From the IMG/VR virus record IMGVR_UViG_3300022916_000894: DNA of 64,000 nucleotides; one strand, given 5' to 3'. The translations under genes and the position numbers were made by a program. Numbering within the stretch: the first letter of the stretch is position 1; each line of letters begins with the position of its first letter. The DNA comes from a virus (lineage: Duplodnaviria; Heunggongvirae; Uroviricota; Caudoviricetes). The notes below the pieces were generated by a model. It did no database searches. It saw only the letters and a list, made by a program, of their open reading frames with translations, and was not told the origin of the DNA. This document shows positions 1 to 62,368 of this stretch, piece after piece.

Positions 1-76
1 CGCGTGGGGAGTACGTCTATACAACAGTGTCTCAGAGGGCACGAGGCCGGTTCACCCCCACACGCGTGGGGAGTAC
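1..76 (-). CRISPR. CRISPR array 1 (partial, runs off the window start). A 14-nt repeat 3' end sits at 1-14, a 33-nt spacer at 15-47, and a full 29-nt repeat CGGTTCACCCCCACACGCGTGGGGAGTAC at 48-76
   Basis: The 48-76 repeat matches the 29-nt repeats at 7568-7841. The palindromic core is CCCCAC-ACGC-GTGGGG. The repeat has the same architecture as the E. coli I-E repeat read as its reverse complement (CGGTT.A.CCCC...GGGGAA..C), so transcription is inferred leftward with the leader to the right. Confidence 0.85.
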
Positions 77-149: not shown

Positions 150-1505
150 TTACGACCTAAAAATCATATTTTCGAATAACAATAAACCACATCCTGCATT
201 TTTCTCTCTACCGATACCATTTTTACATGCTTCAACAAACAACTCTTTGTCAACAACTTTAATTTCTAATTCTACATCAGCGACAATAATATTATGCTGT
301 TTACCTTCGACTTTTTCAGTATGTGATATATTACAATTCAAAATCTTCAAACCATAATTTTTACTTCTTTTATTCAACCATTCCAATCGTTCTCGTTCAG
401 TTTTTAATAATACATTTTTTCCGTCTAGTCTTTTAACTGGATTATACCGTAACCAACAACGGAGATGATTTAATTGATCCCATTTGTCATATATTACAGG
501 ATGAATACAACACTTTATAATTCCTTTATTGTATTCGTTTAAAAAAGACCAATCAGGTTTTTTTTCAGTTTTAACTATTATATGAGATTCTTGTACAGAG
601 AATAAACATCTTCCCTTTCCTCCATCATCTATAGACGGGAGAGACTTACAAATTATATGAAAAAAGTCATGAGGATGATTTGCGAATTGATAAACATAAT
701 TTTCATTTTCAAATTTTAAAATAGTAATGTATTCATCTGCATTTTGATCACATTTGTTCTCGAAAATAATTTGGTTTTTTCTTTTTTTGATAGCGGGCAT
801 ATGTCCATGAGATACCGTAAAACTAGGAGTTTCTTTAATCAATTCAGCATTTAATGGCTTTTCAACTGATTTAATTTTTCGATAACTAAAAATTCTATCG
901 GCAGAATTAATCATTACATCCTTGATTAAAATACCATCTTTATCATTGTTTGGTATTTCTTGAATATATTCCAATTTTTCAGGTTTTTTAACATCACCAC
1001 GATAAAACCACGGTTCTTTTTCTAGGATATCCTTTCCGATAGACTTATCAGACCAATGCCTCACATATATAGGTGCAGATGGTTCGTATTCTCTCCTTCC
1101 AAGATATGGATACCATTCTGGACTCTTAACAACACCAGCTACCCACTCTATCAATTCCGAATCAGGTGAATCTAATAACACTAAAAAACTCGCATCGCAT
1201 AAATAGTGTTTATATTGAACTATAGTTTTATTTTTTGATGGTTTTTCTCCTCTTGTTAGGCGATCTTCAAATTGTGCTGTTCTAAAATCTTCTTTATATT
1301 CACCTGGATAATCAATCCTAACCGTCATTTTTGTATCATTCAATTCAATCAATTTCTCATTTGTTCGACCAATACCAGCAGCGGCACGTACCATGTTCAC
1401 AACTGCTGATTTCGTTGGAAATTTTTCGGTGTCACGAACGCTGTAATGACTTTGAATACCATACGATTGTCTTTGTCCTTCCATCTTTAATATAATTCCT
1501 GCCAT
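150..1505 (-). CDS. cas5e-cas6e: Cas5e (CasD)-Cas6e (CasE) fusion protein
   Basis: The N-terminal half carries the CasD signatures YLCDASF and YPYLGRR and an N-terminus that aligns with E. coli CasD (FPTRSGLLGLLGACLGIQR against FPTKSAVVNMVRAAAGIGR). The C-terminal ~200 aa carries Cas6e signatures: LRYNP, EWLNKRS, and the terminal GIGREKNAGCGLL (E. coli CasE ends GIGPAKSMGCGLL). It is one uninterrupted 451-aa frame. An AGGA Shine-Dalgarno lies 9 nt upstream of the ATG. Confidence 0.8.
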   Translation of the reverse strand: MAGIILKMEGQRQSYGIQSHYSVRDTEKFPTKSAVVNMVRAAAGIGRTNEKLIELNDTKMTVRIDYPGEYKEDFRTAQFEDRLTRGEKPSKNKTIVQYKHYLCDASFLVLLDSPDSELIEWVAGVVKSPEWYPYLGRREYEPSAPIYVRHWSDKSIGKDILEKEPWFYRGDVKKPEKLEYIQEIPNNDKDGILIKDVMINSADRIFSYRKIKSVEKPLNAELIKETPSFTVSHGHMPAIKKRKNQIIFENKCDQNADEYITILKFENENYVYQFANHPHDFFHIICKSLPSIDDGGKGRCLFSVQESHIIVKTEKKPDWSFLNEYNKGIIKCCIHPVIYDKWDQLNHLRCWLRYNPVKRLDGKNVLLKTERERLEWLNKRSKNYGLKILNCNISHTEKVEGKQHNIIVADVELEIKVVDKELFVEACKNGIGREKNAGCGLLLFENMIFRS

Positions 1506-1510
1506 TATTA

Positions 1511-2683
1511 TTATCCTAAATGTTTATCAATTGCTTCGATACTTGTTTTCGCTAGTTTTTCCACGAAAGAAGGATGATTTTTACAAGATTCCCAACGATC
1601 TGGATATTGTGTTTTCCAATTCCATAAAGGAACATAAAAACATTCTACATTATTATTCTCATAATCTCCATGATTTGCCAACTGATAATCCAAATATGAG
1701 ATTAGATGATCTACAACCTCTCCTGTAGACTCCGCTCCTTGTGGGGTGGTTTTTCCATAAACTCCACCACACCCATAAGTACGTTGTCCACCATGTCTAA
1801 TTCGTGCCGTTATAAATTCTGTCGTAATCTGATCGTTATTGTAAATTTCGGTCATGCCGTTTGGACGGGAATAAATTATATTCGTAATTAATTCTTTGAA
1901 GTCATCTTCAAAATCTCTTTTGTGCAAACCACTTAATTCAAAAGGACGTACAAGTTCTATACAAGCACTAACATAGTAAAGTGAATCACTGTGTGCGTAA
2001 CGAATGCCCATAAAAGAACCTTTAGACTGAGTAAGGCATAAGTCATCTTTAGCTACAATAAATTCGCTTTTTGCAGTAGGCAACCCAAGTTTATAACCAT
2101 TCATGCGCAGACAACCATCACAGTGTAATTGATTTGTCCCATCAACATTTTCCGTCTTAACTAAAGCCGGGTTGCCTCTCCAAATATCTATAGGAATAAA
2201 TTGAGTCAATTTTTCGTCTTTACCGACATACAACGATGCTATATGATTCCCGATATGTTGCAATTCTTCCTTAAATCCTAAAAATTGTTGATCTTTCTTG
2301 TTATCACTTTTCTTGTTATCACTTTTCTTGTTATTTTTTTCTTCTTTCTTCTTACCTTGAAAATATCTGCCATAGATATCTTCTGTTTTTTCATCTAATG
2401 TTTCTTTATCAATTTCAACACTATCTTTCAGTATTTCACGAACGTGATTCTTAATAAAATCAATAGCTTCAGTTCTGCTGGCAGTAATTCTAACTGGGCT
2501 ACTGGAATTTTCTCGAACTGCACGTAGCAATGCTGCCGAAAATGTGTTTTTGGGGTGATTCATATCGTCACGAACGAAATTAGCACCAGGACTGTTCCAA
2601 ATCATATCTAAGACAAGGTGCGGTGCCCCAAAATTGTTTCCTCTGTTTTTTCTTAATACATCTTTTTCGATTTCCATCGTCAT
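1511..2683 (-). CDS. cas7e: Cas7e (CasC/Cse4) Cascade backbone subunit
   Basis: N-terminal FVRDDMNHPKN matches the CasC LNRDDMNMQKD motif. QRTY is present near the C-terminus. Its size and its position between cse2 and cas5 fit. It contains a K/E/N-rich low-complexity insert. Confidence 0.7.
   Translation of the reverse strand: MTMEIEKDVLRKNRGNNFGAPHLVLDMIWNSPGANFVRDDMNHPKNTFSAALLRAVRENSSSPVRITASRTEAIDFIKNHVREILKDSVEIDKETLDEKTEDIYGRYFQGKKKEEKNNKKSDNKKSDNKKDQQFLGFKEELQHIGNHIASLYVGKDEKLTQFIPIDIWRGNPALVKTENVDGTNQLHCDGCLRMNGYKLGLPTAKSEFIVAKDDLCLTQSKGSFMGIRYAHSDSLYYVSACIELVRPFELSGLHKRDFEDDFKELITNIIYSRPNGMTEIYNNDQITTEFITARIRHGGQRTYGCGGVYGKTTPQGAESTGEVVDHLISYLDYQLANHGDYENNNVECFYVPLWNWKTQYPDRWESCKNHPSFVEKLAKTSIEAIDKHLG
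2296..2336. repeat. 15-bp tandem repeat tcttgttatcacttt, about 2.7 copies, lying inside cas7e and encoding KKSDNKKSDNKK
   Basis: Read directly from the sequence. Confidence 0.8.
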
Positions 2684-2716: not shown

Positions 2717-3214
2717 TTAATTCTTCCAAAAAGATAGCGCTAATTTGTCTTGCACAAACTCATCTTTATGATGCCAATTCATTATATCAGATAACATATT
2801 GGAATAATTAATTTTTATAGAATATTCTGTCATTCGACTAATTAATCTTTTGATTTCTATAAGAACTGTATCAATGTTGTCAAGAGTCAATAAATTGCGA
2901 AAATAATTGTTTATCAAATCAGCCTTGTCCATCGCAAAATATAATTCACGACAAGAATCTCCAAAATTCTTATATTCTTTATCTGTATTATTTTTATATT
3001 CCATAAATAACCCACCAATAAAGAAAAATTCTTTCATGAATTTATAAGGGGTACACCCTTTATACTCGCATGTTTGCCGACGAGCATTTTTATCCTCTAA
3101 TTTCAAACAGCGCCTATAGCAATTAATTGCTTCCACATTATCTTTAACAAGCAATTGATTTAAGTGTTTTATGAAATTAACCTTTAAATCATTTTTTTGT
3201 TTTGTTTCGTTCAT
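2717..3214 (-). CDS. cse2: Putative Cse2/Cas11e small subunit
   Basis: 165 aa, sitting between the large subunit and cas7 in canonical I-E gene order. It overlaps the upstream gene by 26 nt. No motif was confirmed. Confidence 0.45.
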   Translation of the reverse strand: MNETKQKNDLKVNFIKHLNQLLVKDNVEAINCYRRCLKLEDKNARRQTCEYKGCTPYKFMKEFFFIGGLFMEYKNNTDKEYKNFGDSCRELYFAMDKADLINNYFRNLLTLDNIDTVLIEIKRLISRMTEYSIKINYSNMLSDIMNWHHKDEFVQDKLALSFWKN

Positions 3215-4793
3215 TTTTTACAACTCCTTTTTTATAATTTCTTTTTTTCTTCAATGAGTTAGAAGCTTTTACCCAATTCTCCAAGTATCTTTTTCCAACA
3301 TCTTTTCTGATAGATTTCAAGATACGATCTGATATACCATGACATATTTTAATGTTCTTTTCTCTACATTCGGTAATCTTTTTTAATAGTATTGATTTTT
3401 CAATATCTTTAACCATTATATTTTTAAATTTCTGGCTGACATTAGACCAATATGAAAACAAATATTTTTCAGTGACTGTACTGTTGCTACTTTTCTTGTC
3501 ATTTTTTTCTTTCTTCTTACCTTGTACAAAATCGAAGTTATCGTTTATGACTTTTTTTAAAGATTTTTCTTCTTTTATAAATTCGTCGCATAAGCATCGA
3601 ATTTCATCAGAAAATATTTCCATATTATCTTCCAAAGAAAAATTTGAAGTTAATTCTATCGGAAGCTTTGACCTGTATATATAGCGAATTGAAGCTGACT
3701 TTACGCCGCTAATTGATACTTCAATAGGATACGAAAAACTACAACTATTTTTAAGTAATTCAGTGGCGTGTTTTATATTTTTTGGACATTTAATATCTTG
3801 GTTTTTATAATTAATTAGTGAATGGCAATTAATCCAAGAAAGTTGTTTTCGATATTTGTTTTTGTCTACGTTAAAAGGAATCCACTTCGATATTTTTTTG
3901 TCGACTTTTTTATCAGTCACTAATTTGCGGCTGTAACAAAATAAAGGTTCTATAATTGTATCTTCATATTGTTTATACCCTATTTCAGTTCTATTCTTTG
4001 CAGAAAAATACATTTTCTTAAATTTCAGCGTGTCACCACCATCAGGGATCAATTTTATTTTTCTATGAGTCGTAGTCATATAATTAATGGGACCGATTTT
4101 TTTTGCAATAGATTTTTCTTCACTTTCCCACGAAGGTAAATCGTCACTTAAATCAACCGTATCCTCTCCAAATGATGCAGCAAATGTTTTATACGGAATA
4201 GTATTTAATGAAATTATTTCAAAAAGATTGTTACCCCCAATTAAATAAATATTTTTACCTGATAATTCCGAAGTGATATATCCCCTACCTCCCGCCGGGA
4301 CTATGAATTGCATAGAGATAAGCTGTACAACAGTATCAATAGCATCAATTGGGCCGCTATTATTAGTCGTATGATTAAAAAATGGCATTGAAGATTCGCC
4401 TTCATATCCCAAACAATAAATGTGAGATATAGTTTTTTCATCCATATCTTCAGAAGTCTGCAAAAAAGGATATTTTGGGTGAATAAGATAAAATTTTTCT
4501 CGACACGATTCTAAATAATTATGAATTTTTTTGACATCTTGATCGTTAAATTTGGTTTGCTTCCACAATGTCTTACAGTCTTTTAATGTCAAAAATAAAG
4601 ATGAGCAATACAATACGGATTGCATCAATCTCAAAAGAGATATTCTTTCCCACTCATTTTTGCAAATGATTTCTATCACAGAATGCGAATCTTCAAAAAT
4701 GCTTTTAAGAGAATGCATTTTAACACCGCCATCATTACAGCAACAACGAATAAATTGTTCATCTAATAAATTGTAAGCTTTATCGCTCATCAT
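3189..4793 (-). CDS. cse1: Putative Cas8e/Cse1 large Cascade subunit
   Basis: 534 aa, lying directly downstream of cas3 in I-E gene order. The call rests on position and size only. Confidence 0.45.
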   Translation of the reverse strand: MMSDKAYNLLDEQFIRCCCNDGGVKMHSLKSIFEDSHSVIEIICKNEWERISLLRLMQSVLYCSSLFLTLKDCKTLWKQTKFNDQDVKKIHNYLESCREKFYLIHPKYPFLQTSEDMDEKTISHIYCLGYEGESSMPFFNHTTNNSGPIDAIDTVVQLISMQFIVPAGGRGYITSELSGKNIYLIGGNNLFEIISLNTIPYKTFAASFGEDTVDLSDDLPSWESEEKSIAKKIGPINYMTTTHRKIKLIPDGGDTLKFKKMYFSAKNRTEIGYKQYEDTIIEPLFCYSRKLVTDKKVDKKISKWIPFNVDKNKYRKQLSWINCHSLINYKNQDIKCPKNIKHATELLKNSCSFSYPIEVSISGVKSASIRYIYRSKLPIELTSNFSLEDNMEIFSDEIRCLCDEFIKEEKSLKKVINDNFDFVQGKKKEKNDKKSSNSTVTEKYLFSYWSNVSQKFKNIMVKDIEKSILLKKITECREKNIKICHGISDRILKSIRKDVGKRYLENWVKASNSLKKKRNYKKGVVKNERNKTKK

Positions 4794-4827: not shown

Positions 4828-7500
4828 TCACTCGATGTCTACTCCAACTTCCGGATCAAAGGTAACTTTTTTTCCGCACCCGATATTAGATTCGTTATTT
4901 TCTAATACAATTAAATGGTAATATTGGAGACAGGTATCGTCCCAAATAGTTTCCCATTTTTTAGAATTACTAATCCTTTTAAAAATTGATTTATTTTCTT
5001 CAAAAATCTTTTCAAAAGCGAAAATAGAACTAATGGAGCATTTTTCTATTAAATTTTTGACCAATTCAGAATCATTAATATCAATTTCTTGTTTTCCTAA
5101 ATTGTCGTAATAACACTTTCCATTGATCTTGAAAATATAAATCAAACTAGCGGAAAAAGATTTTTTTCTAGTAAGTGGTATTTGAGTAATTCCCAACTCT
5201 ATTTCTTTTTCTATGTCTTTTCCGTTTATAGAATATAAATTACGTTCTAAAATAATTTCTTTTGCATCATCTATCAACGATGACGGTTTTCCAATTATTT
5301 GCAATGTAGATTCACGAGAGTCTTTTTTCTCACTTTTTTCTACCTTTTTTTGTAATTTATCTAATTCTAAAATTTGATTTTTGTCATTAGTTATCGTATC
5401 ATGATTCGAAAAATTATAAACTTTATTTATAAGAGATGATACATCGGTGGGAATAATTATTTCATTTTTATCTTTTAAAACTAATTCAGTTTTTATGCAA
5501 AAATATTTTAAATAAACAGGATTTTTTGAAACTAGTATTATGTTCATGCGTGGCTTTTCTTTTCCAAGCGGCCTAATTATATTGAATCGATGCAATCTCC
5601 CACCACGCTGTAATAAGTGATCAATCGGACACAAATCAGTAAATATTTCATCAAAATCCAAATCTAAACTGTGTTCGAGAATTTGAGTAGATATAACAAT
5701 TGCTTTTTTGGGCCGTTGCCCATTTTTTCCAAACTTTTTGTCAATATCATTTTCAATTTCTTGTCTTTTTTGTGGAGAAAATCTATTTCTAATAATATAA
5801 ACCTCTATATCATTAATATTGTTTTTCTTGAGAGTCTTTTTGATTTTTTTGCGTGTTATTATTGCGGTTTTCGCAGTATTTTTATATACACAAACACATC
5901 CTCCGTTGTTTGCAGAAGATATTATTTTATCTATACTTTTTTTTCCTGAAATAAAATCTATTGAAATTTTCTTTTCATCTTTTTTATCGAGCCGTAGAGG
6001 TTTATGAGTAATTTTTCCTGTTATACGGTTAATTACAGTAATACCGTAACCAGTAGAAAATTTATCGATATCATGTTTACCCAAATATGAACTAACAATG
6101 TCATATTGTAATTTATCAGACATAGTAGCAGACAATAGGACTGTAGGACAACCCGTATTCGCAGACCAAGAAATGGATTCTAAATTTAATGCACCAGTAA
6201 AAGAATCATAAGAGTGAATCTCATCATAAGTGATCACTTTGTGGGCGATACCGAAAGTCCTTAAGGAAAAATGTCTTACTGGCAAAATAGAAAACAATAA
6301 CTGATCTACTGTGCCAACACCATGAGGTTGTAACATCGCTACTTTTTTCATGGTTAACCATTGTCTTGCCTCTTTGGGCAACAATGCAACAACTTTTGTA
6401 AAATCGTCTACAAGATAAGCATGACCATGAATTAAATTAGAATCAAGAACACCTATTTTATTCAAAAAAATATTCTCACGCTTATATAACATGTTGCTAG
6501 AAGATTGAGTCGGCATCGCGGTATAACATCCAATCACTTTTCCCGATTTCAAAAAATGATATTTAATCATATGGCTAGTTTCGGTTTTTCCGTAACCTGT
6601 TGGGCCTTTAACCAGCACTGCGCAATCTGCCGTTATTGTCCCATCCTCAAGAAAATCTTTAGTTATTTTTTGCAATTCATTTAACGGATATCCGATGATT
6701 GTTTCCCAATCAACAGTAGAAATTTTATAGTTTGAAATCAAATGATTGGAACATAAAAATGTTGATATTTTTTTACTTCGTTTTGGCACGTCCAGTATAT
6801 ATGACCGATAATCAAACGGCGAATTTGAATTGATATTGATAGAAGCGGATGCTACCCAATCACACACGACCATAAATCCCAATATCCAAATTAAAATTTT
6901 TCTTGGTATTTCATCTGAAAAATTGTCTTTAAAAGTTGAAAAATCGATACAAGAAAAATCTTGAATATAATTAACAAATAATTTTCGTACTTCTTTCCAT
7001 TCTGCACCTGATCCTCTTTGTAATTTTTCAGACTCAAAAGGCGAACTTGATCCATGATGATTTCCGGTTAAAGTGGCAATCATGTTAAAAAAATCATAAA
7101 TATTTTCCCCATACTGATCAAATACGTCGCACATTTCTTCTCTTAATATGTCTTGACTAGAACGAGCATGCCAATAATCCGGCTTACTCCCATCACAAGA
7201 AAAATATTTCTTAATATTTAACGGTATGTCATCTGTTGTTCCAAAAATACGGTGAAGAAAAGAAGGAGTTAATTTTCCGATATCATGTAGTCCAATTATA
7301 AATGATAAAAGCGGAATTAAGTCTTCGATTTTTATGCCAAGCGATTCAGATATCCATAATTTAACATTTTCTGGGTATGAATTGATAATCTCTTTTGCAA
7401 CTAACATAGTATCAAAACAATGAAAAAGTGTTGGATACAAATTTAAACCGCTTTTTTTACCAGGCAATTTTAATAATAAATCTAACTTGTCTTTACTCAT
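4828..7500 (-). CDS. cas3: Cas3, an HD nuclease fused to a superfamily-2 helicase
   Basis: The N-terminal HD domain shows H..LHDIGK (compare HD motif II). Walker A is LVKGPTGYGKTE. A DEAH-like box appears as ITYDEIHSYD. 890 aa. Confidence 0.8.
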   Translation of the reverse strand: MSKDKLDLLLKLPGKKSGLNLYPTLFHCFDTMLVAKEIINSYPENVKLWISESLGIKIEDLIPLLSFIIGLHDIGKLTPSFLHRIFGTTDDIPLNIKKYFSCDGSKPDYWHARSSQDILREEMCDVFDQYGENIYDFFNMIATLTGNHHGSSSPFESEKLQRGSGAEWKEVRKLFVNYIQDFSCIDFSTFKDNFSDEIPRKILIWILGFMVVCDWVASASININSNSPFDYRSYILDVPKRSKKISTFLCSNHLISNYKISTVDWETIIGYPLNELQKITKDFLEDGTITADCAVLVKGPTGYGKTETSHMIKYHFLKSGKVIGCYTAMPTQSSSNMLYKRENIFLNKIGVLDSNLIHGHAYLVDDFTKVVALLPKEARQWLTMKKVAMLQPHGVGTVDQLLFSILPVRHFSLRTFGIAHKVITYDEIHSYDSFTGALNLESISWSANTGCPTVLLSATMSDKLQYDIVSSYLGKHDIDKFSTGYGITVINRITGKITHKPLRLDKKDEKKISIDFISGKKSIDKIISSANNGGCVCVYKNTAKTAIITRKKIKKTLKKNNINDIEVYIIRNRFSPQKRQEIENDIDKKFGKNGQRPKKAIVISTQILEHSLDLDFDEIFTDLCPIDHLLQRGGRLHRFNIIRPLGKEKPRMNIILVSKNPVYLKYFCIKTELVLKDKNEIIIPTDVSSLINKVYNFSNHDTITNDKNQILELDKLQKKVEKSEKKDSRESTLQIIGKPSSLIDDAKEIILERNLYSINGKDIEKEIELGITQIPLTRKKSFSASLIYIFKINGKCYYDNLGKQEIDINDSELVKNLIEKCSISSIFAFEKIFEENKSIFKRISNSKKWETIWDDTCLQYYHLIVLENNESNIGCGKKVTFDPEVGVDIE

Positions 7501-7567
7501 TTTTATTCCTTCAACACATTATAGCAACAATCTACGACAATCACCTTACTTTTATTGAAAAATTCTA

Positions 7568-7841
7568 TTTTTTACCCCCACTTACGTGGGGAATATATTG
7601 CTGCTTATGCTGCTCAAGCTGGCATTGTCGGTTCACCCCCACACGCGTGGGGAATACGTTACTCCCTTCTATTCTGCAAGCTGTCTAAGCGGTTCACCCC
7701 CACATACGTGGGGAATACTCTTCTTTAGATACAGATAATCCCGGCATCGTCGGTTCACCCCCACACGCGTGGGGAATATTTCAAGAGTATGTCGAAATTG
7801 TGGCCATCCGTCCGGTTCACCCCCACACGCGTGGGGAGTAC
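7568..7841 (-). CRISPR. CRISPR array 2, with five 29-nt repeats and four spacers of 32, 32, 32 and 33 nt
   Basis: Repeats lie at 7568-7596 (degenerate: tttacccccacttacgtggggaatat), 7629-7657, 7690-7718, 7751-7779 and 7813-7841. The stem CCCCAC/GTGGGG is conserved in every copy while the loop varies (ACGC, TTAC, ATAC). The degenerate distal repeat faces cas3 and the GAGTAC-ending repeat lies next to the AT-rich region at 7842-7933. Confidence 0.9.
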
Positions 7842-7933
7842 TTATTATTCTTTAACTTATACTACATTATAGGCAACAGTAATTTATTTTTTCGCTTAAA
7901 GCTTTTTTAGAAGAAGGAATTTCCATAGATTAC
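7842..7933 (-). promoter_or_regulatory. Putative leader of CRISPR array 2
   Basis: AT-rich non-coding sequence on the side where I-E-type repeat orientation places the leader. Confidence 0.4.
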
Positions 7934-7975
7934 ATGCTATATAGAAAGAAGCGTTGGATACTTAAAGGAGATAAA

Positions 7976-9106
7976 ATGTACAAATTTACTACAGAACAAG
8001 AGAAACATATAGTCAAAGAATACCAATCTGGCATCGGAACACCCAAATTGGCACAAGAACACGGATGTACCAAAAAGACTATTCAATTCCTATTAAAGAG
8101 ACATAATGCATTTAAAGGCAGAAAGAAATTCACAGAAGAAGAACTCCAAGAAATTAAACAACGCTATCTTAATTACGAAACCGCCAGTCAAATCGCAAAA
8201 GATTTTGAAGTAGGAGAAAGAGCAATCAAAAACAGACTTATTGAAATGGAACTTTATACGATAGGCAAACGTCGCCCAAAGACAAAACATTGGACTGATA
8301 AAAAGAAGAAAAAAGCAGTACAGATGTATAAAAAAGGGAAAAGAGTCAATGATATAGCAAGGCATTTTAACGTTACTCCATCAGGTATAAGATATACATT
8401 GGTTAAAAACAAAGTATGGAAGTTTAAAGGAGTGAGAAAATATACATGCAATTTTGATTTCTTTGAAAAAATAGATACAGAAGAAAAAGCATATTGGTTA
8501 GGATTTATAGGGGCAGATGGTAATGTATTTAAAAATTGTCTCCACATTGGTATACATGAAAACGATGTTAAACACCTTGAAAAATTTAGTAAACATATTA
8601 CTGGTAATTACCCCGTTAGAATCAAAACATATATATCAAGAGGTAAACCATCTAGCATAGCGAGGATAGATATTCATAGCAATAAGATAATAAATGACTT
8701 ATACAGATCAGGAATTACACCTAAGAAATCTCATACTATCTCTTGGCAAAAAACTACTAAAAATATTCCAAAACATCTTATACATCATTTCGTGAGGGGA
8801 TACTTTGATGGAGATGGCAGTTGGAAAAAAAGTGGTAAAAATGGTAACGGAATACATTTTTCTGTAGCGTGTGGAAGTGGTGATTTCATTTTGGGATTAC
8901 AAAAACAATTATGTTCTAGTTGTGGATTGTCAATGGTCAAAATCTACTCTAAAAAAACGAATGACAAAAAAGCTAATAATTATGCATTGGAATATGGTGG
9001 ACGTTTACAGGAAATACGTATCTATAATTGGATGTACAATAATGCTACATTATTTTTAGAGAGAAAAAAAGATAAGGCATATAAGTATTTATTCGAAGTC
9101 TCTTAA
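7976..9106 (+). CDS. Free-standing LAGLIDADG homing endonuclease with three N-terminal helix-turn-helix repeats
   Basis: Two LAGLIDADG motifs are present: YWLGFIGADGNV and YFDGDGSW. The N-terminal ~170 aa hold three ~50-aa helix-turn-helix-like repeats. AAGGAG lies 7 nt upstream of the ATG at 7976. The 7934 ATG given in the ORF track is probably not the true start. Confidence 0.7.
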   Translation: MYKFTTEQEKHIVKEYQSGIGTPKLAQEHGCTKKTIQFLLKRHNAFKGRKKFTEEELQEIKQRYLNYETASQIAKDFEVGERAIKNRLIEMELYTIGKRRPKTKHWTDKKKKKAVQMYKKGKRVNDIARHFNVTPSGIRYTLVKNKVWKFKGVRKYTCNFDFFEKIDTEEKAYWLGFIGADGNVFKNCLHIGIHENDVKHLEKFSKHITGNYPVRIKTYISRGKPSSIARIDIHSNKIINDLYRSGITPKKSHTISWQKTTKNIPKHLIHHFVRGYFDGDGSWKKSGKNGNGIHFSVACGSGDFILGLQKQLCSSCGLSMVKIYSKKTNDKKANNYALEYGGRLQEIRIYNWMYNNATLFLERKKDKAYKYLFEVS

Positions 9107-10510
9107 GTCGTAGACTTGTTTAGCGTCGATACATTCTTTTGGTATGTATTCCATATAATTAGTAGTTAAAAACCAGAACCAATGTTTAGGATATTGAGGG
9201 TTTACATGGTTCCCATACGAATCCGTTAATACCCACACTGCTTTTGGGTATTCGCATTTCTCTTTCTTAATAACTCGTTGTATCGTACTCTCAATACAAT
9301 CAAAAGCCGTACCACCACCGCCAAGGGCTTTCATATTTCCTTTTGTTATAACTACTTCATGCATCATTGTATCAAAACACCATAGACGTACCTCAAACTT
9401 GTCGCTAGGCAATGATGCTGCCGCATGAGCAAAACGATCAAATAGATGAGAGCAACTGCCAGAATTGTCAATCACGAACCATACTTTGATTTTGCCTTCT
9501 TCTTCGTATAAATCTTCTACTTCCATTTCAGTAGGCAAAAAGAAATCATTTGGTAATATGGTGAACCGTCTGTTTATTCGTACCCATTGTTCTAAGTCGC
9601 GTGAAGCAAACTTAACTTCTTTTAGCATCCACTTTTTAATAATGGTTTCCCATTTTTTCTTTGTAGGTACATTATCGACTTTAGAAAATGACCAAAAACC
9701 GCCAGCCCCAACGCCCGCAGTTTGATCGCCTTGACCGCTGCCATCCTTGGGCAATTTTTCTTCTTGAAAATGTTCATCAATCATATCTTCAAGGTCGCTT
9801 TTTTCTTCTTCCGTCATATCTTCGTTTAATTCTTCGATGATTTCTTTTAATGCCTCTGTGTCCTTTAATCCATCATGGTCGTCAAACGAATCACTACCAA
9901 GTCCTTGACCTTCTCCGCTATCGCCTTCTCCACCGCCGCCACCAGGAGTTATAGGAAGAAGATTATAATAGTATTCAAAGCTTTTGTTGTCGGGTGGAAT
10001 TCTGCCCTTTAAAGTCTCCAACATTTCTGGATGTCTTTTTGGATCAAAAACAGTATCTACCCAACAGAAGTCACGATAATCCCCATGAGGTTCAGCACCT
10101 TCTGGCAACATATCCTTTTCGAAGCCTTTAATCTTGTGTCTATTAAAACCGAATTTATTAACAAGCAAATGATTTACTACAATGTCTAGACATACATTAA
10201 CTGCTTGTCTATTGCTTTTTCTGACACCTTTCATCCTAACTCCATGATTCAGAATAAGATGGAGCATTTCGTGGCAGATAACAAAACGGCGGCTATAATC
10301 ATCGAGATAATTCCAAAATTTGGGATTGAATTCGAAAATCATCCCTTCGCCTTCTTTATTGAAGATCACGCCAGCAGTAGGGATTTTATCTGAAAAACCT
10401 GGTTTGCCCATTTCCCAAAATTTGTGGAAAATCACATGCTTATCTTGCAGACTATCAGCGATAGCAAAGAATTCATCATTATCTATTTTGGCTGTGACTG
10501 TTTCCGTCAT
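9089..10510 (-). CDS. Zincin-like metallopeptidase domain (HExxH) fused to a VWA domain (DUF2201-type partner of MoxR ATPases)
   Basis: HEMLH lies in the N-terminal half. A MIDAS-like VIDNSGS sits in the C-terminal VWA-like domain. It overlaps the next gene by 4 nt. Confidence 0.6.
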   Translation of the reverse strand: MTETVTAKIDNDEFFAIADSLQDKHVIFHKFWEMGKPGFSDKIPTAGVIFNKEGEGMIFEFNPKFWNYLDDYSRRFVICHEMLHLILNHGVRMKGVRKSNRQAVNVCLDIVVNHLLVNKFGFNRHKIKGFEKDMLPEGAEPHGDYRDFCWVDTVFDPKRHPEMLETLKGRIPPDNKSFEYYYNLLPITPGGGGGEGDSGEGQGLGSDSFDDHDGLKDTEALKEIIEELNEDMTEEEKSDLEDMIDEHFQEEKLPKDGSGQGDQTAGVGAGGFWSFSKVDNVPTKKKWETIIKKWMLKEVKFASRDLEQWVRINRRFTILPNDFFLPTEMEVEDLYEEEGKIKVWFVIDNSGSCSHLFDRFAHAAASLPSDKFEVRLWCFDTMMHEVVITKGNMKALGGGGTAFDCIESTIQRVIKKEKCEYPKAVWVLTDSYGNHVNPQYPKHWFWFLTTNYMEYIPKECIDAKQVYDLRDFE

Positions 10511-13080
10511 GATGCCTTTCTGCTCTTAAAATAGAATCCGTTCTTTACTGCCGCATATGCCAAAACAGCGGGGAAAGAGTCTTTGAATTTACTGAATTTA
10601 TAGCCATGTGTTTTCAGGTTATCAATGCACGTATTAATCATGGCAGGTAATTCAGTCCATTTCTTTACTGTGTCTCTGTGAGTCATCTTAATCACTTTTT
10701 CCAACACTGTTAATACTTTAATAGACGTATCCTTAGACATAACATTTGGCATTCCATTCTTAATAACATTGAATGCATCGATTCTGAAAAATGTAGAATC
10801 GAAATCGCCATCGATTTTATCGTCAAGTTGTTTGCCAAAAGAGACTGTTTCTTTTTTCTTTACTTGATAATTGTCTATCCTATTATCATTTACGGCAGGC
10901 GAATCCGGCATAGACGAGATTTGTTTCATGCCATCTTCTGAGAAACGCTTTCTGATTTGGCTGACCAAGGCTTTGTTCATGTCTGCTTTTTCAATTTCTT
11001 TCAAAGCTTCTTTGATCGTTTTATGCCTAGAATAGTTTTTCAAGGCCCACATCATTACGCTACTGCTTTGAGAGATAAGCATATTGATTTTTTCAGCAGG
11101 CATAAATGGGACAAAAAGATCGACCTTTACTCTATCTCTTAATATCTCATGTTTTGCCAAATCAAAATTATTCTCATTTTCTAGAAATTCTTTGATTTTA
11201 TCATCATCTTTTCCTACCATCAACGATTCTAGCTTCGCTATGATTGGTCTTTCTTTGATAATTTTGGTCAATTCTGCCGGATTACAACCCTTTGGCAATG
11301 CATAGCCAACATTTCCACCCTTGAAGAAAATCTCAAGAGCATAATCCAAACGACGAGGGGATACCTTAGTGATGATATCAGGATGCTCTTTTTTTAGTTT
11401 CTTCCACCATTCGATAGAACCATTTGCTACGTCTTTTCCATACTTGTGTATGAAATAAGGCATACTTGGTTCAAATTTCAATTCGATGTGGATTTGGAAT
11501 CTATCTTTTTGAGCAGGGTCCAATTTCTCAACGTCGAAATCTAGTTCTTCATCATCATCTGGGTTAATAGCCGCCCAAATTACTTTCAAGTTTTTGAATT
11601 CCCTACCATTAATAGATTTGAATTGAATCAATTCCATCACAGCATTTCTAATTTTTTTTGGGCTATTATGGACGAACACGCCTTGTCCTACTGCGAAGTT
11701 ATTATAATCATCCACAGTGATGTCATAAACATCTTCATAACCAGCATCTTCAATTTTAATCACTCTATGATTTTTGTTTTCTGAATATTCACTTTGAAAA
11801 TGATTTACAAAATTATCAAAAGAACCAAAGTGTTTTTCGAGAGTGCTGATTTTCATGAGGTATTTACCACGACTATTTTTTGCCAAATTTTTTATTCGAC
11901 TACGAATTGTTTCATATAATTCCGGAGTCAACAATACGCCTTCTTCTAATTGTGTTTTTAGAATTTTTATCGTGTATGACAGTCTCGCTTTACGATTAGC
12001 AGTTACTCTATCTATGTTGTCAAATTGCCCATTCGCCCATGCTTTTTTTGCTCGTTGAGACTGTTCGTTTTTCTTTTGTTTGTCCCAGAAATTTAAAGAG
12101 ATTTTCGACCTATTTTTTTTGTACTGCTCGTCTGATTGGCGTGTTTTTATAGATGCTGCGACGGCTTTAGAACGACTATTGGCATTACCTATCGTTCTTA
12201 AATAATGTAGTGGATATTTTTCATGTACAGTTTTTCCTCCATCTGAAGCGTGTTTAAAAATATGTTCTTCTTTTGAAAGCCGCTCGATATTTAACGGAGA
12301 ATTATTAAAACGATTTTTATCTTTATGATGACGATAACCACCAGTGCTTTTTTTGTATATTTTAGTTAAAATATTATATTTATCTGCTAAATGATAAGTA
12401 AATTCCCAACGAGTTGGTCGTACTGAAGAAACTAATTCATAACCATTTTTATTATATTTTTTGTATAATGCCATTAGAGCATCATCAGGTTCGAGATCAC
12501 CCGCTTTGACATATAAACCAGTCGTCAAAAGAAAAGGATGATCACCAGTACATCGTACAGATAACCCATTATCTAATGTGACTTTTATAACTTTTTGTTT
12601 TTTGCCAGTTTTTCTGGCAGAATGACCTCTTCCAACAGCCATACATTTATTTTTAAGATCATAACTATACACAAAAAACTCTTTTTTATCAACTAAATCT
12701 TTAATAGGAATCGAATAACCATCGGCTAATTGAATAGGAGTATCACCAGTTAAACATCTGTTAAATTCATCAAACAAAATTGCTTCTACTTCATCATCTT
12801 CAAATTCTCGTGGCTTAATCAACTTCAAATATGCTTTGCCTGTTTTTTTATCTTCAACCCGTGCTGGCACCCCAAGAAAGTCAACCCACGGGTCCATAGT
12901 GGCGGCAGAAAACATACGATAGTTCAGCCCTTCATTGTCCCATAAACTCTTAATAATGCTGGATTTGCCAACACCGTGTCTACCGATAAACAATACATTC
13001 CAATCGTTCTTAAGGCACAACTGTAATTTTTTGGTTAATGTATCTTCGGCTACAAAAGCACCTGTGTCAAAGTCGGCCAA
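10507..13080 (-). CDS. MoxR-like AAA+ ATPase interrupted by a ~370-aa intein
   Basis: Walker A is GRHGVGKSS. The Walker B region reads ILFDEFNR|C. Intein block A, CLTGDTPIQLADG, begins immediately after the NR. The intein ends in VFVHN|S, after which the ATPase sequence resumes. Confidence 0.7.
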   Translation of the reverse strand: MADFDTGAFVAEDTLTKKLQLCLKNDWNVLFIGRHGVGKSSIIKSLWDNEGLNYRMFSAATMDPWVDFLGVPARVEDKKTGKAYLKLIKPREFEDDEVEAILFDEFNRCLTGDTPIQLADGYSIPIKDLVDKKEFFVYSYDLKNKCMAVGRGHSARKTGKKQKVIKVTLDNGLSVRCTGDHPFLLTTGLYVKAGDLEPDDALMALYKKYNKNGYELVSSVRPTRWEFTYHLADKYNILTKIYKKSTGGYRHHKDKNRFNNSPLNIERLSKEEHIFKHASDGGKTVHEKYPLHYLRTIGNANSRSKAVAASIKTRQSDEQYKKNRSKISLNFWDKQKKNEQSQRAKKAWANGQFDNIDRVTANRKARLSYTIKILKTQLEEGVLLTPELYETIRSRIKNLAKNSRGKYLMKISTLEKHFGSFDNFVNHFQSEYSENKNHRVIKIEDAGYEDVYDITVDDYNNFAVGQGVFVHNSPKKIRNAVMELIQFKSINGREFKNLKVIWAAINPDDDEELDFDVEKLDPAQKDRFQIHIELKFEPSMPYFIHKYGKDVANGSIEWWKKLKKEHPDIITKVSPRRLDYALEIFFKGGNVGYALPKGCNPAELTKIIKERPIIAKLESLMVGKDDDKIKEFLENENNFDLAKHEILRDRVKVDLFVPFMPAEKINMLISQSSSVMMWALKNYSRHKTIKEALKEIEKADMNKALVSQIRKRFSEDGMKQISSMPDSPAVNDNRIDNYQVKKKETVSFGKQLDDKIDGDFDSTFFRIDAFNVIKNGMPNVMSKDTSIKVLTVLEKVIKMTHRDTVKKWTELPAMINTCIDNLKTHGYKFSKFKDSFPAVLAYAAVKNGFYFKSRKAS

Positions 13081-15642: not shown

Positions 15643-16047
15643 GGTACTACATTATAACACAGACTAATTTCGGGATAATAAAAAACTATAAATTTTTATC
15701 TAAAATACCGATTTTCTTTAGAGGCCATATCCATAAACAAAGGAATGCATTTCCAATGAATTTTAGAACTTTTTTAATATGCAGCAATTTTACAAAGGCT
15801 ATAATTGATGCCAAAGCAATAAACAAAGCGAATATGGGCAAGAAAACCCACCAAAGACCTATCGCAATCCATAAATCTTTTCTTTGGTCTTCTTCACCAT
15901 AATCGTTACTACAGGTCTGATCAGGAGGTATATGAGTCCACATCCATTTATCGATTTTGTCAAATAATTCGCTTGACACAAGCATTATGGTAATAAATGC
16001 CCCAATGTAATAACCGCCCAAAATAATTAACATCCATATTCCTAAAC

Positions 16048-16647: not shown

Positions 16648-17110
16648 GTTTTGTTATCTCCTGGGATTTAAGTTCTTCCACAATTTTCCTAATAGCGATC
16701 ACACCAGTATAGCACTCGTCATTTAACCACATGATCGGAATTGACGATGGCGAATTGCTAATAATCACTGGGATTTCATTCGCCATAGTTGCTAAATCTT
16801 GCATAACTTTTGCCGCTGATAGATTCGCGTCATTAAAAAGAAAGCGAATCTTTTTCTTTTTCGCTTCCTTACTCATTTTAGTTTTTCTCAGTCTTTCTAT
16901 CAGAAGTGTAATGAGGAGACTTCTTTGAAAATGCGTTCTTTACAAGAACTTTATACCCATCGTCTTCGTACATCTTAACACGATTGACAATCCAATCGGT
17001 CTTTCTATCTTCTTTTGCACAAAAAATAATAATCTGTCCTTCGATACGACCTTGCTTCTCACTAAGTAATTCCCAATTCATAATATCTCCTTCTGTTACT
17101 ACATTATAGG

Positions 17111-20336: not shown

Positions 20337-20409
20337 GGACACAGATGGGAATCGAACCCATATCCTCCACATTGCAAGTGTAGTGCTTTCCCAATTAAGC
20401 TACTGGCCC
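20337..20409 (-). tRNA. tRNA-Ala(UGC)-like gene, or a tRNA-derived fragment
   Basis: The reverse complement folds as D-arm GCTT/AAGC, anticodon arm CTACA-CTTGCAA-TGTGG (anticodon TGC), and T-arm ATGGG-TTCGATT-CCCAT. The acceptor stem has mismatches at pairs 3-70 and 4-69. No CCA is encoded. Confidence 0.55.
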
Positions 20410-31357: not shown

Positions 31358-32161
31358 TTACGTACCATTTCCATACACCGTATTATGAGTTCTTGAGACG
31401 CGAATAAATTCACAGCATTTATTAAAATACTTTAACTTACTCGCTCCAACATACGTGCAAGCCGATCTTAAACCACCAAGAATGTCTTGAACAATATCTT
31501 CTGCCTTACCTTTATAGGGAATTGAAACAGTTTTTCCCTCAGAAGTTCTATATTTTTTTACTCCATCATGGTATTTTTCTTGTGCATCCTTAGATGACAT
31601 ACCGTAAAATTTCAAAGTTTTTTTACCAACATTTTTAGCAGTTTTTTCAAGTTCTGTTTCTACATATCTAAGGGCATCTTCCCAAGAATGAAACATTTTA
31701 CCTTCACCACTGTTTTGCTGTTCATACGAAGAAATCGTAATAGGAATATTCTCCTTGTCAACAATTCTTGTTCTCATGCTTTCTCGTACATAATTATTCA
31801 AAGATGAATAATATTCGTGTCGTTTTTGTTCTTCGTCTTGCAATTCGTGATATTCCCATTCGCCCTCACATTCGCTTGTGCCAGCGAAGAATCCACCCAA
31901 CATAACGAAGTCAGCACCAGCGCCAAATGCCTTACAGACATCACCTGTGACGTTACAGCCCCCATCAGAGCAGACATGACCATCCAATCCGTGTGCTGCA
32001 CTTTTTGTCTCTAACACCGCTGACAATTGAGGATATCCACAATTATGAACAACCATGCTCTCGACACAATAAGAATGATTGTTTTCAACTGTTAAATCAT
32101 AAACGTCTTCTAGATTAGATTTTACATTTTTTTTAAATACTTTTTTAAGTTTGAATTTCAT
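31358..32161 (-). CDS. guaC: GMP reductase/IMPDH-family C-terminal half, preceded by a ~40-aa C-intein (split-intein C fragment)
   Basis: It begins MKFKLKK...MVVHN|CGYPQLSAV...DGGC...[14 protein letters not shown]...FYGMSS...[16 protein letters not shown]. This aligns with E. coli GuaC from VGYPQLSAV onward. Confidence 0.8.
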
Positions 32162-32858: not shown

Positions 32859-32920
32859 AATATTTCTCCATAGTGTATAAAATAGGTAAATCTATACTAT
32901 TTTATACACTATAAAATAAT

Positions 32921-62067: not shown

Positions 62068-62368
62068 TTAATAACGCGGCACTCATATTTTCCATTCCAA
62101 CAGTATTCTGTGTATGTAAAGAAAACTTTATAGGCTGTATGCTATTATCATAAGCGGCTCTTTCAATCCAACTTGCTACATCATACCCGCTTCCATTACC
62201 TTCTCCCAAATCGTGATCGAAGGACATATGTGTTACTTTACCAGTTTTTAACACTTCAATAGCTTCAGATGCGGTTTTTACGTGAATATCGTATTCTGGC
62301 GGCATTTCTCTCAAGTCATCTAACCACACTTTATATTCACCATCAGCCTTTTTAAACCAATTCATCAT
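62015..62368 (-). CDS. Receiver-like domain protein (LDDL...DHDLGEG), paralog of 30449..30901, with an MMNWFK N-terminus
   Basis: The motifs are shared with the ORF at 30449..30901. Confidence 0.4.
   Translation of the reverse strand: MMNWFKKADGEYKVWLDDLREMPPEYDIHVKTASEAIEVLKTGKVTHMSFDHDLGEGNGSGYDVASWIERAAYDNSIQPIKFSLHTQNTVGMENMSAALLNANRFWREHQEKEQDVV

What the first reader, a model, noticed from the sequence alone, without database searches (positions are those of the whole stretch)
150..1505. Single-polypeptide Cas5e-Cas6e fusion
In canonical I-E systems CasD (about 224 aa) and CasE (about 199 aa) are separate genes. Here one 451-aa frame carries CasD signatures (YLCDASF, YPYLGRR) in its first half and Cas6e signatures (LRYNP, EWLNKRS, GIGxxKxxGCGLL at the extreme C-terminus) in its second half. 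The pre-crRNA endonuclease would then be tethered covalently to the Cas5 subunit that caps the crRNA 5' handle. That would change Cascade assembly and stoichiometry
Basis: seen in the sequence. Interest (0 to 1): 0.8.

Follow-up and report, generated by a model that had tools for sequence, protein, structure and literature searches.

The report
Fused Cas5e–Cas6e gene, phage-borne I-E
A large phage-like element carries a type I-E CRISPR–Cas3 system, without spacer-acquisition genes, in which two normally separate Cascade subunits (Cas5e and the RNA-cutting Cas6e) are one protein; this fusion is real and rare, and a similar one is already known in type I-G.

Summary
Window 150..1505 (minus strand) is one uninterrupted 451-aa ORF. 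Residues 4-209 match Cas5 (Pfam 3e-29; NCBIfam casD above cutoff). Residues 275-443 match Cas6e (Pfam 2.3e-18). The C-terminal half models confidently (pLDDT 84) and superposes on T. thermophilus Cse3 (TM about 0.8).

It is not an assembly artefact. The identical gene lies on 12 contigs from at least six samples, and both other frames are full of stops. At least four unrelated metagenomic I-E loci carry their own Cas5e-Cas6e fusions, which appear to have arisen independently.

The gene ends a cas3-cse1-cse2-cas7 operon flanked by two small CRISPR arrays (4 and 8 spacers). There is no cas1/cas2. The host element is AT-rich and looks like a large phage.

The idea is not new: type I-G Csb2 is a Cas5-Cas6 fusion. 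I found no description of a type I-E version, including in the 2025 classification, so I file it as a new variant of a known kind.

How one polypeptide serves both ends of the crRNA is inferred, not shown. The catalytic histidine alignment is ambiguous (H279 or H283).

The parts
150..1505 (-). cas5e-cas6e fusion gene, 451 aa (stop codon at 150-152)
   Evidence: ORF listing. Pfam Cas5 and Cas6e hits on one protein. Identical gene on 12 contigs.
861..1505 (-). Cas5e (CasD) domain, about residues 1-215
   Evidence: Pfam PF09704 covers residues 4-209, profile positions 2-214 of 217. NCBIfam TIGR01868 scores 105.6 bits, above cutoff. A PDB profile search matches Cas5e chains 4n77, 5u07_N and 4qyz_J.
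732..860 (-). Interdomain linker, about residues 216-258, Lys-rich; contains A7 and A6 runs (T runs at + strand 775-788)
   Evidence: No family match here. pLDDT is below 50 over residues 184-255 of the full-length model. Linker length and sequence are not conserved among the fusions. Both other frames have stops inside the linker.
153..731 (-). Cas6e (Cse3/CasE) domain, residues 259-451, two RRM folds
   Evidence: Pfam PF08798 covers residues 275-443. The AF2 model has pLDDT 84.2 and pTM 0.81. Foldseek top hits are T. thermophilus Cse3 (2y9h, 2y8y, 3qrq) with TM 0.77-0.83 and E about 1e-15.
657..677 (-). HPHDFFH segment (residues 277-283) on helix alpha1; candidate catalytic histidines H279 and H283
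   Evidence: Alignment A1 puts H279 in an invariant His column of the five fusions. Alignment A4 and phmmer put F282 in the catalytic His column, with H283 next to it. The assignment is unresolved.
180..218 (-). Glycine-rich loop GIGREKNAGCGLL (residues 430-442), a Cas6 hallmark
   Evidence: Conserved across the fusions and stand-alone Cas6e proteins in alignments A1 and A4.
1511..2683 (-). Putative, highly diverged cas7e (390 aa)
   Evidence: Assigned by position between cse2 and cas5. Only a sub-threshold Pfam CT1975 hit (E 1.2e-3, 18.9 bits against cutoff 26). No PDB sequence hit.
2717..3214 (-). cse2 / cas11e (165 aa)
   Evidence: Pfam PF09485 at 1.8e-10. NCBIfam TIGR02548 scores 32.5 bits, above cutoff 28.5.
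3189..4793 (-). cse1 / cas8e (534 aa)
   Evidence: Pfam PF09481 at 2.4e-38.
4828..7500 (-). cas3 (HD nuclease plus helicase, 890 aa)
   Evidence: Pfam Cas3_HD at 5.9e-27 and Cas3-like_C_2 at 1.9e-28. NCBIfam cas3_core at 2.3e-50.
7567..7841 (-). CRISPR array A: 5 repeats and 4 spacers upstream of cas3; the last repeat is degenerate
   Evidence: Repeat family D2, read on the minus strand. The repeat GTACTCCCCACGCGTGTGGGGGTGAACCG folds into a 6-7 bp stem with a tetraloop.
1..76 (-). CRISPR array B, first repeat, first spacer and start of the second repeat; the window ends inside it. The full array has 9 repeats and 8 spacers.
   Evidence: for the window part. The complete array was read from L127 12608-13100.
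7861..7871 (-). TATAATGTAGT, a promoter-like motif just upstream of array A
   Evidence: Four copies on the minus strand against 0.13 expected. The others lie at 15646, 17098 and 24026.

Best explanation
This is a genuine, expressed-as-one-ORF fusion of cas5e and cas6e. It is the last gene of an interference-only type I-E CRISPR-Cas3 module (cas3, cse1, cse2, cas7, cas5e-cas6e). The module is flanked by two small CRISPR arrays and carried by a large AT-rich phage-like element.

Shown: both domains are complete and homologous to Cas5e and Cas6e. The repeat is a standard I-E hairpin repeat. The gene is identical in many samples.

Inferred: the C-terminal Cas6e domain binds the repeat hairpin. 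It would cut at the hairpin's 3' base, leaving an 8-nt 5' handle (GUGAACCG), and stay on the hairpin. The N-terminal Cas5e domain would cap a 5' handle and nucleate the Cas7 backbone.

The hairpin and the 8-nt handle are contiguous within one repeat, but they end up at opposite ends of a mature crRNA. The most economical model is therefore that one fusion molecule docks on one whole repeat of the pre-crRNA. After cleavage it would hold the 3' hairpin of the upstream crRNA and the 5' handle of the downstream one. That would give either tethered neighbouring Cascades or complexes with two fusion copies, each with one idle domain. Alternatively, the roughly 43-residue disordered linker could stretch along a single complex.

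With no cas1/cas2 and static arrays, the system works from a fixed spacer set, presumably against competitors of the element. The targets are unknown.
For: - Single ORF with both Pfam domains.
- Cas5e and Cas6e PDB relatives match the two halves.
- The Cas6e half models at pLDDT 84 and superposes on Cse3 at TM about 0.8.
- The glycine-rich loop and nearby histidines are conserved.
- The identical gene lies on 12 contigs from at least six samples.
- The alternative frames are full of stops.
- All five operon genes have an AGGA/GGAG motif 6-10 nt upstream of the start codon, whereas the only internal ATG near the domain boundary (M236) has none.
- Four other I-E loci carry Cas5e-Cas6e fusions. 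Each fusion's Cas5 domain is closer to unfused Cas5e proteins than to the other fusions.
- Linkers range from about 10 to about 65 aa. The shortest appears too short to span a canonical Cascade (from general knowledge of Cascade dimensions; not measured here), which favours the one-repeat docking model.
- The repeat hairpin is a standard I-E type.
- cas1/cas2 are absent from the window and from 10 kb beyond array B, and the arrays are identical across samples.
- Precedent: the Cas6 domain of I-G Csb2 cleaves with a histidine and stays on the hairpin (PMC9638904).
Against: - There are no expression, protein or RNA data.
- All contigs are nucleotide-identical, so purifying selection on the fusion cannot be measured.
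- In the alignment with stand-alone Cas6e proteins, the catalytic His column holds Phe282.
- NCBIfam casE is below its cutoff.
- Cas7 is barely recognisable.
- The full-length model is poor (pLDDT 56), so it says nothing about how the domains sit relative to each other.
- One short contig (L001) diverges inside the Cas6e half and encodes a truncated 325-aa product.
- No spacer target was found.
- Phage identity rests on DNA-metabolism genes only; no structural genes were seen.
Confidence: 0.75

Rival explanations
1. Sequencing or assembly artefact: two adjacent genes, cas5e and cas6e, were merged by an indel or a lost stop codon in the assembly.
For: cas5e and cas6e can abut in the same frame with only a stop codon between them, as in Finegoldia pFMC. 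The linker contains A7 and A6 homopolymers. One contig, L001, differs downstream.
Against: The identical 1,356-nt ORF was recovered from at least six samples and several assemblers. L001 itself is 100% identical across the whole junction, residues 1-321. The roughly 43-aa linker is extra sequence that canonical loci lack. Stops fill both other frames of the linker.
Confidence: 0.02
2. One ORF but two proteins: internal translation initiation, ribosomal slippage on the A-runs, or proteolysis in the disordered linker yields free Cas5e and/or free Cas6e. Cascade would then assemble canonically.
For: The linker is predicted disordered and is Lys-rich. It holds an internal ATG at M236 and an A7 run where a -1 shift would terminate 9 codons later. 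Internal initiation is known for Cas11 in other type I subtypes (own knowledge, not checked here).
Against: M236 has no Shine-Dalgarno-like motif, whereas all five annotated starts have one. Fusions with about 10-aa linkers exist elsewhere, such as P0081. Csb2 works as an intact fusion (PMC9638904).
Confidence: 0.13
3. A decaying or partly inactive system: the Cas6e domain only binds the hairpin, or does nothing. crRNA processing is then done by a host Cas6e or another RNase, or the locus is a remnant.
For: Phe282 sits in the catalytic His column of alignment A4. NCBIfam casE is below cutoff. There is no cas1/cas2 and the arrays are static. Cas7 is strongly diverged. The same repeat type is widespread in bacterial I-E arrays, so a host enzyme could recognise it.
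Against: All five genes are intact in a 30-34% GC region where random ORFs reach at most 165 codons. Histidines lie at i-3 and i+1 of the catalytic column on the same helix. The G-rich loop is intact. Repeats are well conserved, and array A sits behind a phage-type promoter motif. The fold is complete.
Confidence: 0.1

Closest known systems
Canonical type I-E Cascade-Cas3 (E. coli K-12, T. thermophilus, T. fusca; PDB 4qyz, 4tvx, 5u07)
   Same: Same gene set and order (cas3, cse1, cse2, cas7, cas5e, cas6e). Same 29-nt hairpin repeat with 32-34-nt spacers. Both halves of the fusion match the I-E-specific Cas5e and Cas6e families and structures.
   Different: Here cas5e and cas6e are one gene joined by a linker of about 43 aa. 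There is no cas1-cas2. Two arrays flank the operon. Cas7 is highly diverged. The system sits on a phage-like element.
Csb2 (GSU0054 family), the Cas5-Cas6 fusion of type I-G (PMC3150331, PMC9638904)
   Same: Same domain order, Cas5-like at the N-terminus and Cas6 at the C-terminus, in one polypeptide. In Csb2 the Cas6 domain cleaves with a histidine and stays on the hairpin, and the role and placement of the Cas5 domain are unresolved. The same topological puzzle applies here.
   Different: This is an independent fusion. The halves here are I-E families (casD, casE), not the Csb2 family. The partners are Cse1, Cse2 and Cas7e rather than Cas8g and Csb1. The Cas5 half here is a full, conventional Cas5e.
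Type I-E2 Cas5-HNH Cascade (PMC10910872, PMC12669027; PDB 8yb6, 8zol)
   Same: A type I-E variant in which Cas5e carries an extra C-terminal domain. Cas5-HNH proteins were among the closest relatives of the query's Cas5 half.
   Different: The added domain there is an HNH nuclease that replaces Cas3, and Cas6e stays separate. Here the added domain is Cas6e itself and Cas3 is present.
Type I-C Cas5d
   Same: One Cas5-family subunit supplies both pre-crRNA cleavage and 5'-handle capping, as summarised in PMC9638904.
   Different: In I-C the Cas5 fold itself is catalytic and Cas6 is absent. Here a bona fide Cas6e domain is appended.
Adaptation-less CRISPR-Cas on phages and plasmids (for example the reduced I-E of Finegoldia magna pFMC; phage-encoded systems, from own knowledge)
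   Same: An interference module with arrays but without cas1/cas2, carried on a mobile element.
   Different: In pFMC, cas5e and cas6e are still separate, with a stop codon between two in-frame genes.

Membership tests
Type I-E CRISPR-Cas | Signature large subunit cse1/cas8e | tested here: met
   Pfam PF09481 at 2.4e-38, 132.9 bits against cutoff 24.7. The NCBIfam equivalog TIGR02547 is below its cutoff, 46.8 against 70.
Type I-E CRISPR-Cas | Small subunit cse2/cas11e | tested here: met
   PF09485 scores 41.9 bits against cutoff 24.6. TIGR02548 scores 32.5 bits against cutoff 28.5.
Type I-E CRISPR-Cas | Cas7e backbone subunit | tested here: inconclusive
   PF09344 scores 18.9 bits against cutoff 26 (E 1.2e-3). 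No PDB sequence hit. Assigned by position and size only.
Type I-E CRISPR-Cas | Cas3 with HD nuclease and SF2 helicase | tested here: met
   Cas3_HD at 5.9e-27. cas3_core scores 171.7 bits against cutoff 102.
Type I-E CRISPR-Cas | Separate cas5e and cas6e genes (canonical architecture) | tested here: not met
   A single 451-aa ORF. This is the variant feature.
Type I-E CRISPR-Cas | Adjacent cas1-cas2 adaptation module | tested here: not met
   Array B follows the fusion gene directly. No Cas1/Cas2 Pfam family was recorded for any gene called in the roughly 10 kb beyond array B. phmmer with an I-E Cas1 and the ORF downstream of it (from L006) found nothing in any window ORF (limited sensitivity).
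Type I-E CRISPR-Cas | 29-nt palindromic repeat with spacers of about 32 nt | tested here: met
   Repeats of 29 nt with spacers of 32-34 nt. The repeat folds into a 6-7 bp stem with a tetraloop. The same repeat core occurs in many bacterial I-E arrays.
Cas6e (Cse3/CasE) endoribonuclease | Two tandem RRM/ferredoxin folds | tested here: met
   The AF2 model has pLDDT 84.2 and pTM 0.81. Foldseek gives TM 0.77-0.83 to Cse3 over about 200 columns.
Cas6e (Cse3/CasE) endoribonuclease | C-terminal glycine-rich loop | tested here: met
   GIGREKNAGCGLL at residues 430-442 aligns with GIGRGKxxGxGLL of stand-alone Cas6e proteins.
Cas6e (Cse3/CasE) endoribonuclease | Catalytic histidine on helix alpha1 (His26 in T. 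thermophilus, His20 in E. coli; residue numbers from own knowledge) | tested here: inconclusive
   Alignment A1 aligns H279 with the His column. Alignment A4 and phmmer align F282 there, with H283 adjacent.
Cas6e (Cse3/CasE) endoribonuclease | Sequence-specific cleavage of the repeat at the 3' base of the hairpin | not testable with these tools
   Needs an RNA cleavage assay or small-RNA sequencing.
Cas5e (CasD) | Full-length match to the Cas5e equivalog model | tested here: met
   TIGR01868 scores 105.6 bits against cutoff 68.95. The Pfam profile is covered at positions 2-214 of 217.
Csb2 / GSU0054 (type I-G Cas5-Cas6 fusion) | Cas5-like N-terminal domain plus Cas6 C-terminal domain in one protein | tested here: met
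   Domain order seen. Definition taken from PMC3150331 and PMC9638904.
Csb2 / GSU0054 (type I-G Cas5-Cas6 fusion) | Sequence membership in the Csb2 family, with I-G partners (Csb1, Cas8g/Csx17) | tested here: not met
   Among Cas families, only the generic Cas5 and I-E casD and casE models hit at E <= 0.1. The neighbouring genes are cse1, cse2 and cas3. It works like Csb2 but is not a member.

The most novel reading that the evidence does not exclude
The covalent link forces a non-canonical assembly. Each fusion protein reads one entire repeat, taking the hairpin with its Cas6e domain and the following 8-nt handle with its Cas5e domain. After cleavage it physically couples the head of one Cascade to the tail of the next, or else every complex carries two copies. 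That would be a new Cascade architecture. Because canonical I-E is the best-understood Cascade, it would also give a tractable model for the unresolved placement of the Cas5 domain in type I-G Csb2. The recurrence of such fusions on adaptation-less mobile I-E modules (phage here, a TniQ-linked locus in L002) would then mark a distinct streamlined I-E lineage type.
Probability: 0.25. Interest if true: 0.7.

Novelty: new variant of a known kind. Interest (0 to 1): 0.52.

Why it matters
In Cascade, Cas5 and Cas6 sit at opposite ends of the crRNA, so fusing them poses a real topological problem. The same problem is still open for type I-G Csb2, where the Cas5-like domain's place and role are described as elusive (PMC9638904).

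A type I-E version can be compared directly with high-resolution canonical structures, so it could settle how such fusions assemble. It also reduces a Cas3-based effector by one gene, which is useful for compact multi-subunit editing tools.

The finding adds a case of a phage-like element carrying a complete interference-only type I-E system. JGI/IMG annotates this protein only as CasD, so fusions of this kind are probably under-counted.

Tried and rejected
- **Close relatives of the fusion:** The search for related loci found none in viral contigs or metagenome contigs. Alignment A1 had no stretch conserved enough to scan with.
- **Word-indexed homology searches:** these returned few fusions. 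The exhaustive representative search was the useful one.
- **Spacer targets:** six of the 12 spacers, with every sixth base degenerate, gave no hit in viral contigs. No spacer matched the window or any fetched locus.
- **Host inference from the repeat:** this failed. The repeat core occurs in I-E arrays of many phyla, and none of those arrays holds a spacer matching the window.
- **Combined alignment A3:** MAFFT placed the stand-alone Cas6e sequences on the Cas5 half, so I did not use it for modelling.
- **Full-length AF2 model:** too poor (pLDDT 56) to say anything about domain arrangement.
- **Promoter scan:** uninformative in this AT-rich DNA, with 47 sites found against 41 expected.
- **Viral structure library:** no fusion-like relative.
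- **Phage identity:** tblastn of the two largest orphan proteins against known phages gave nothing useful.
Full report
**Observation**

Window 150..1505 on the minus strand is a single 451-aa ORF with an ATG start. It is preceded by an AGGA motif, like the other four genes of the operon.

Pfam places a complete Cas5 domain at residues 4-209 (3e-29) and a Cas6e domain at residues 275-443 (2.3e-18). NCBIfam casD is above its equivalog cutoff. NCBIfam casE is detected but below cutoff.

A profile built from five fusion proteins matches solved Cas5e chains (4n77, 5u07_N, 4qyz_J) with its first half. It matches solved Cse3/CasE chains (1wj9, 2y8w, 3qrp, 4qyz_K) with its second half.

**Is the fusion real?**

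Four observations argue against it.
- The exact 451-aa protein is on record on 12 contigs from JGI, ENA and Logan assemblies of at least six samples. The 1,356-nt gene is nucleotide-identical in every one I could read.
- The other two frames of the gene contain 36 and 57 stops, several of them inside the linker.
- Shuffled sequence of this composition never gave an open stretch above 165 codons.
- A short ENA contig (L001) is identical across the whole junction, residues 1-321. It then diverges into unrelated sequence for its last 108 nt. This is a chimeric end or an insertion variant, and it is unresolved.

Because all copies are identical, they exclude error but give no measure of selection.

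**Is the C-terminal half a Cas6e fold?**

With an alignment of 17 sequences, the C-terminal 204 residues model at mean pLDDT 84.2 and pTM 0.81, showing two beta-alpha-beta-beta-alpha-beta units. Foldseek against the PDB returns T. thermophilus Cse3 as the top hits (E about 1e-15, TM 0.77-0.83, rmsd 2.6-3.1 Å over about 200 columns). E. coli CasE chains follow. Even the poor full-length model (pLDDT 56) finds both Cse3 and Cas5e chains.

The glycine-rich loop is intact. The catalytic histidine is ambiguous. The segment reads H277-P-H279-D-F-F-H283. The alignment of fusions puts H279 in an invariant His column. The alignment with stand-alone Cas6e proteins, and phmmer against Cse3, put F282 there with H283 adjacent. 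Both histidines lie on the same modelled helix.

**Anatomy of the protein**

| Part | Residues | Note |
|---|---|---|
| Cas5e domain | about 1-215 | complete |
| Linker | about 216-258 | Lys-rich, no family match, predicted disordered |
| Cas6e domain | 259-451 | complete |

The only internal ATG near the boundary (M236) has no Shine-Dalgarno-like motif. The linker contains A7 and A6 runs. A -1 slip there would terminate nine codons later. I note this as a possibility with no supporting evidence.

**Context**

The gene closes an operon of cas3 (4828-7500), cse1 (3189-4793), cse2 (2717-3214), a very diverged putative cas7 (1511-2683) and the fusion.

Two arrays in the same orientation flank the operon.
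- Array A (7841-7567) has 5 repeats and 4 spacers, with a degenerate terminal repeat.
- Array B starts 73 nt after the fusion's stop codon and runs off the window. Read in full from L127, it has 9 repeats and 8 spacers.

The repeat GTACTCCCCACGCGTGTGGGGGTGAACCG folds into the usual I-E hairpin. By analogy with E. coli, where cleavage falls at the 3' base of the stem, it would leave an 8-nt GUGAACCG handle (inference from own knowledge of E. coli Cas6e).

No cas1 or cas2 lies between the fusion gene and array B, in the 10 kb beyond it, or elsewhere in the window at the sensitivity available. The arrays are identical in all samples.

Array A sits 20 nt downstream of TATAATGTAGT. This motif occurs four times on the gene strand in the window, against 0.13 expected, which suggests the array is read from a promoter class of the element itself.

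The rest of the window is 30-40% GC and almost all on one strand. It encodes phage-type functions: NAD-dependent ligase, polynucleotide kinase, a thymidylate-synthase-like protein, a DNA methyltransferase, HNH and LAGLIDADG endonucleases, inteins, Thg1-like and CCA-type tRNA enzymes, and one tRNA-Cys. No structural gene was seen and no known phage is close. 'Large phage-like element' is therefore an inference.

**Relatives**

An exhaustive HMMER search of 1.84 billion representatives gave 2,288 hits. Almost all of the best 150 are ordinary Cas5e proteins of 210-250 aa. Four others are Cas5e-Cas6e fusions by Pfam: P0056, P0067, P0081 and P0128.

Their contexts differ.

| Locus | Context |
|---|---|
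| L003 | array, then cas3-cse1-cse2-cas7-fusion |
| L004 | fusion followed by a Cas3 HD domain |
| L005 | cas7, fusion, then unrelated genes |
| L002 | fusion followed by a TniQ protein |

Each fusion's Cas5 half is more similar to unfused Cas5e proteins than to any other fusion. The linkers range from about 10 to about 65 residues with no conservation. The fusion therefore seems to have arisen repeatedly.

The route is short. In Finegoldia magna plasmid pFMC the annotated cas5e and cas6e genes abut in the same frame, separated only by a stop codon. Each of the four other fusions is a singleton contig. The short-linker one (P0081) could itself be an error.

**Mechanism**

What is shown: two complete domains of the right families in one ORF, a standard I-E repeat, and a full interference gene set.

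What is inferred is the mode of action. In canonical Cascade, Cas6e stays on the 3' hairpin and Cas5e holds the 5' handle at the other end of the complex (established knowledge of PDB 4QYZ/4TVX-type structures). In the uncleaved precursor, however, the hairpin and the next 8 nt are contiguous. A fusion, especially one with a short linker, therefore fits best as a reader of one whole repeat.

After cleavage, such a protein would join the head of one complex to the tail of the next, or two copies per complex would each leave one domain idle. A 43-residue linker, fully stretched, might alternatively span a single complex. None of this could be computed here.

The closest precedent is Csb2 of type I-G. 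Its Cas6 domain cleaves with a histidine and stays on the hairpin. Its Cas5-like domain has not been placed, and its role is called elusive (PMC9638904; bioRxiv 10.1101/2022.08.19.504415).

**Novelty**

A Cas5-Cas6 fusion as such has been known since 2011 (GSU0054; PMC3150331). The protein here is not a Csb2 family member. Its halves are I-E families and its partners are Cse1 and Cse2.

Full-text searches for Cas5-Cas6 fusion phrases returned only gene-order strings or type I-G papers. The 2025 classification names I-E2 (Cas5-HNH), I-E3 (Cas11-nuclease) and I-E5 (a CAST), but no Cas5-Cas6e variant. The terascale survey lists Cas5-HNH, Cas5-Cas3 and Cas8-Cas5 fusions, but not this one. JGI/IMG names the protein simply CasD.

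The literature library is incomplete, and the supplementary tables of those papers were not examined, so a prior mention cannot be excluded.

**Verdict**

The feature is real. I classify it as a new variant of a known kind. Interest is moderate: the topological question is genuine and testable. Against that, the concept has a precedent, the mutational route is trivial, and function remains unproven.

Noticed in passing
window 1-76 and 7567-7841; L127 12608-13100: Two CRISPR arrays (8 and 4 spacers) flank the cas operon. There is no cas1/cas2, and the arrays are identical in all samples. Spacer GC content ranges from 28% to 55%. No targets were found for the six spacers searched.
   Followed up: partly
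window 7861-7871, 15646-15656, 17098-17108, 24026-24036 (minus strand): TATAATGTAGT occurs four times against 0.13 expected. Three of the copies sit within longer repeats conserved between these sites (repeat finder D4 and D20). It is probably a promoter class of the element, and one copy drives array A.
   Followed up: partly
L001 2834-2941 (corresponds to window about 541): ENA contig k141_1770489 is identical to the window up to residue 321 of the fusion. It then switches to unrelated sequence, giving a 325-aa truncated product. This is either a chimeric contig end or an insertion variant inside the Cas6e half.
   Followed up: partly
L002 250-3419: An unrelated Cas5e-Cas6e fusion (P0067, 460 aa) is followed directly by a 561-aa TniQ-domain protein (Pfam 4e-15). 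This could be a type I-E-derived CRISPR-associated transposon that has TniQ, whereas the published I-E5 CAST is described as lacking it. The contig is only 3.5 kb.
   Followed up: partly
L136 3346-7314 (Finegoldia magna plasmid pFMC, NC_010371.1): A reduced plasmid-borne I-E module, annotated as cse1, cas7e, cas5e and cas6e, with no annotated cas3, cse2, cas1 or cas2 nearby. Its cas5e and cas6e abut in the same frame with only a stop codon between them.
   Followed up: no
window 10507-13080 and 31358-33877: There is an intein splicing domain inside an 857-aa ATPase-like protein. An intein fragment also sits at the start of an IMPDH/GMP-reductase-like ORF next to two further ORFs, which may be a split or intein-interrupted gene. 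Several HNH and LAGLIDADG homing-endonuclease genes lie nearby (7934-10510).
   Followed up: no
window 20337-20409, 34321-35082, 54590-55498, 62365-63987; L127 17105-18151: A set of tRNA-related genes: tRNA-Cys, a Thg1-like guanylyltransferase, polynucleotide kinase, an HD / tRNA-nucleotidyltransferase-like protein, and a T4 Rnl2-type RNA ligase just outside the window. Together they suggest a tRNA repair or maturation toolkit.
   Followed up: no
window 2328-2359 and 3493-3524: The same Lys-rich low-complexity coding stretch appears as an insertion in both the putative Cas7 and Cse1 (repeat families D5 and D10). In Cas7 it reads KKKEEKNNKKSDNKKSDNKK.
   Followed up: no
window 45481-48909 (+): A 1,142-aa ORF lies on the opposite strand at 44% GC, well above its surroundings. 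It has no Pfam family and almost no phage relatives. A second orphan of 1,043 aa lies at 56637-59768.
   Followed up: partly
window 775-788: A6 and A7 homopolymer runs (T runs on the + strand) lie inside the interdomain linker. A -1 slip there would end translation nine codons later and yield a Cas5e-only product. There is no evidence that this happens.
   Followed up: no
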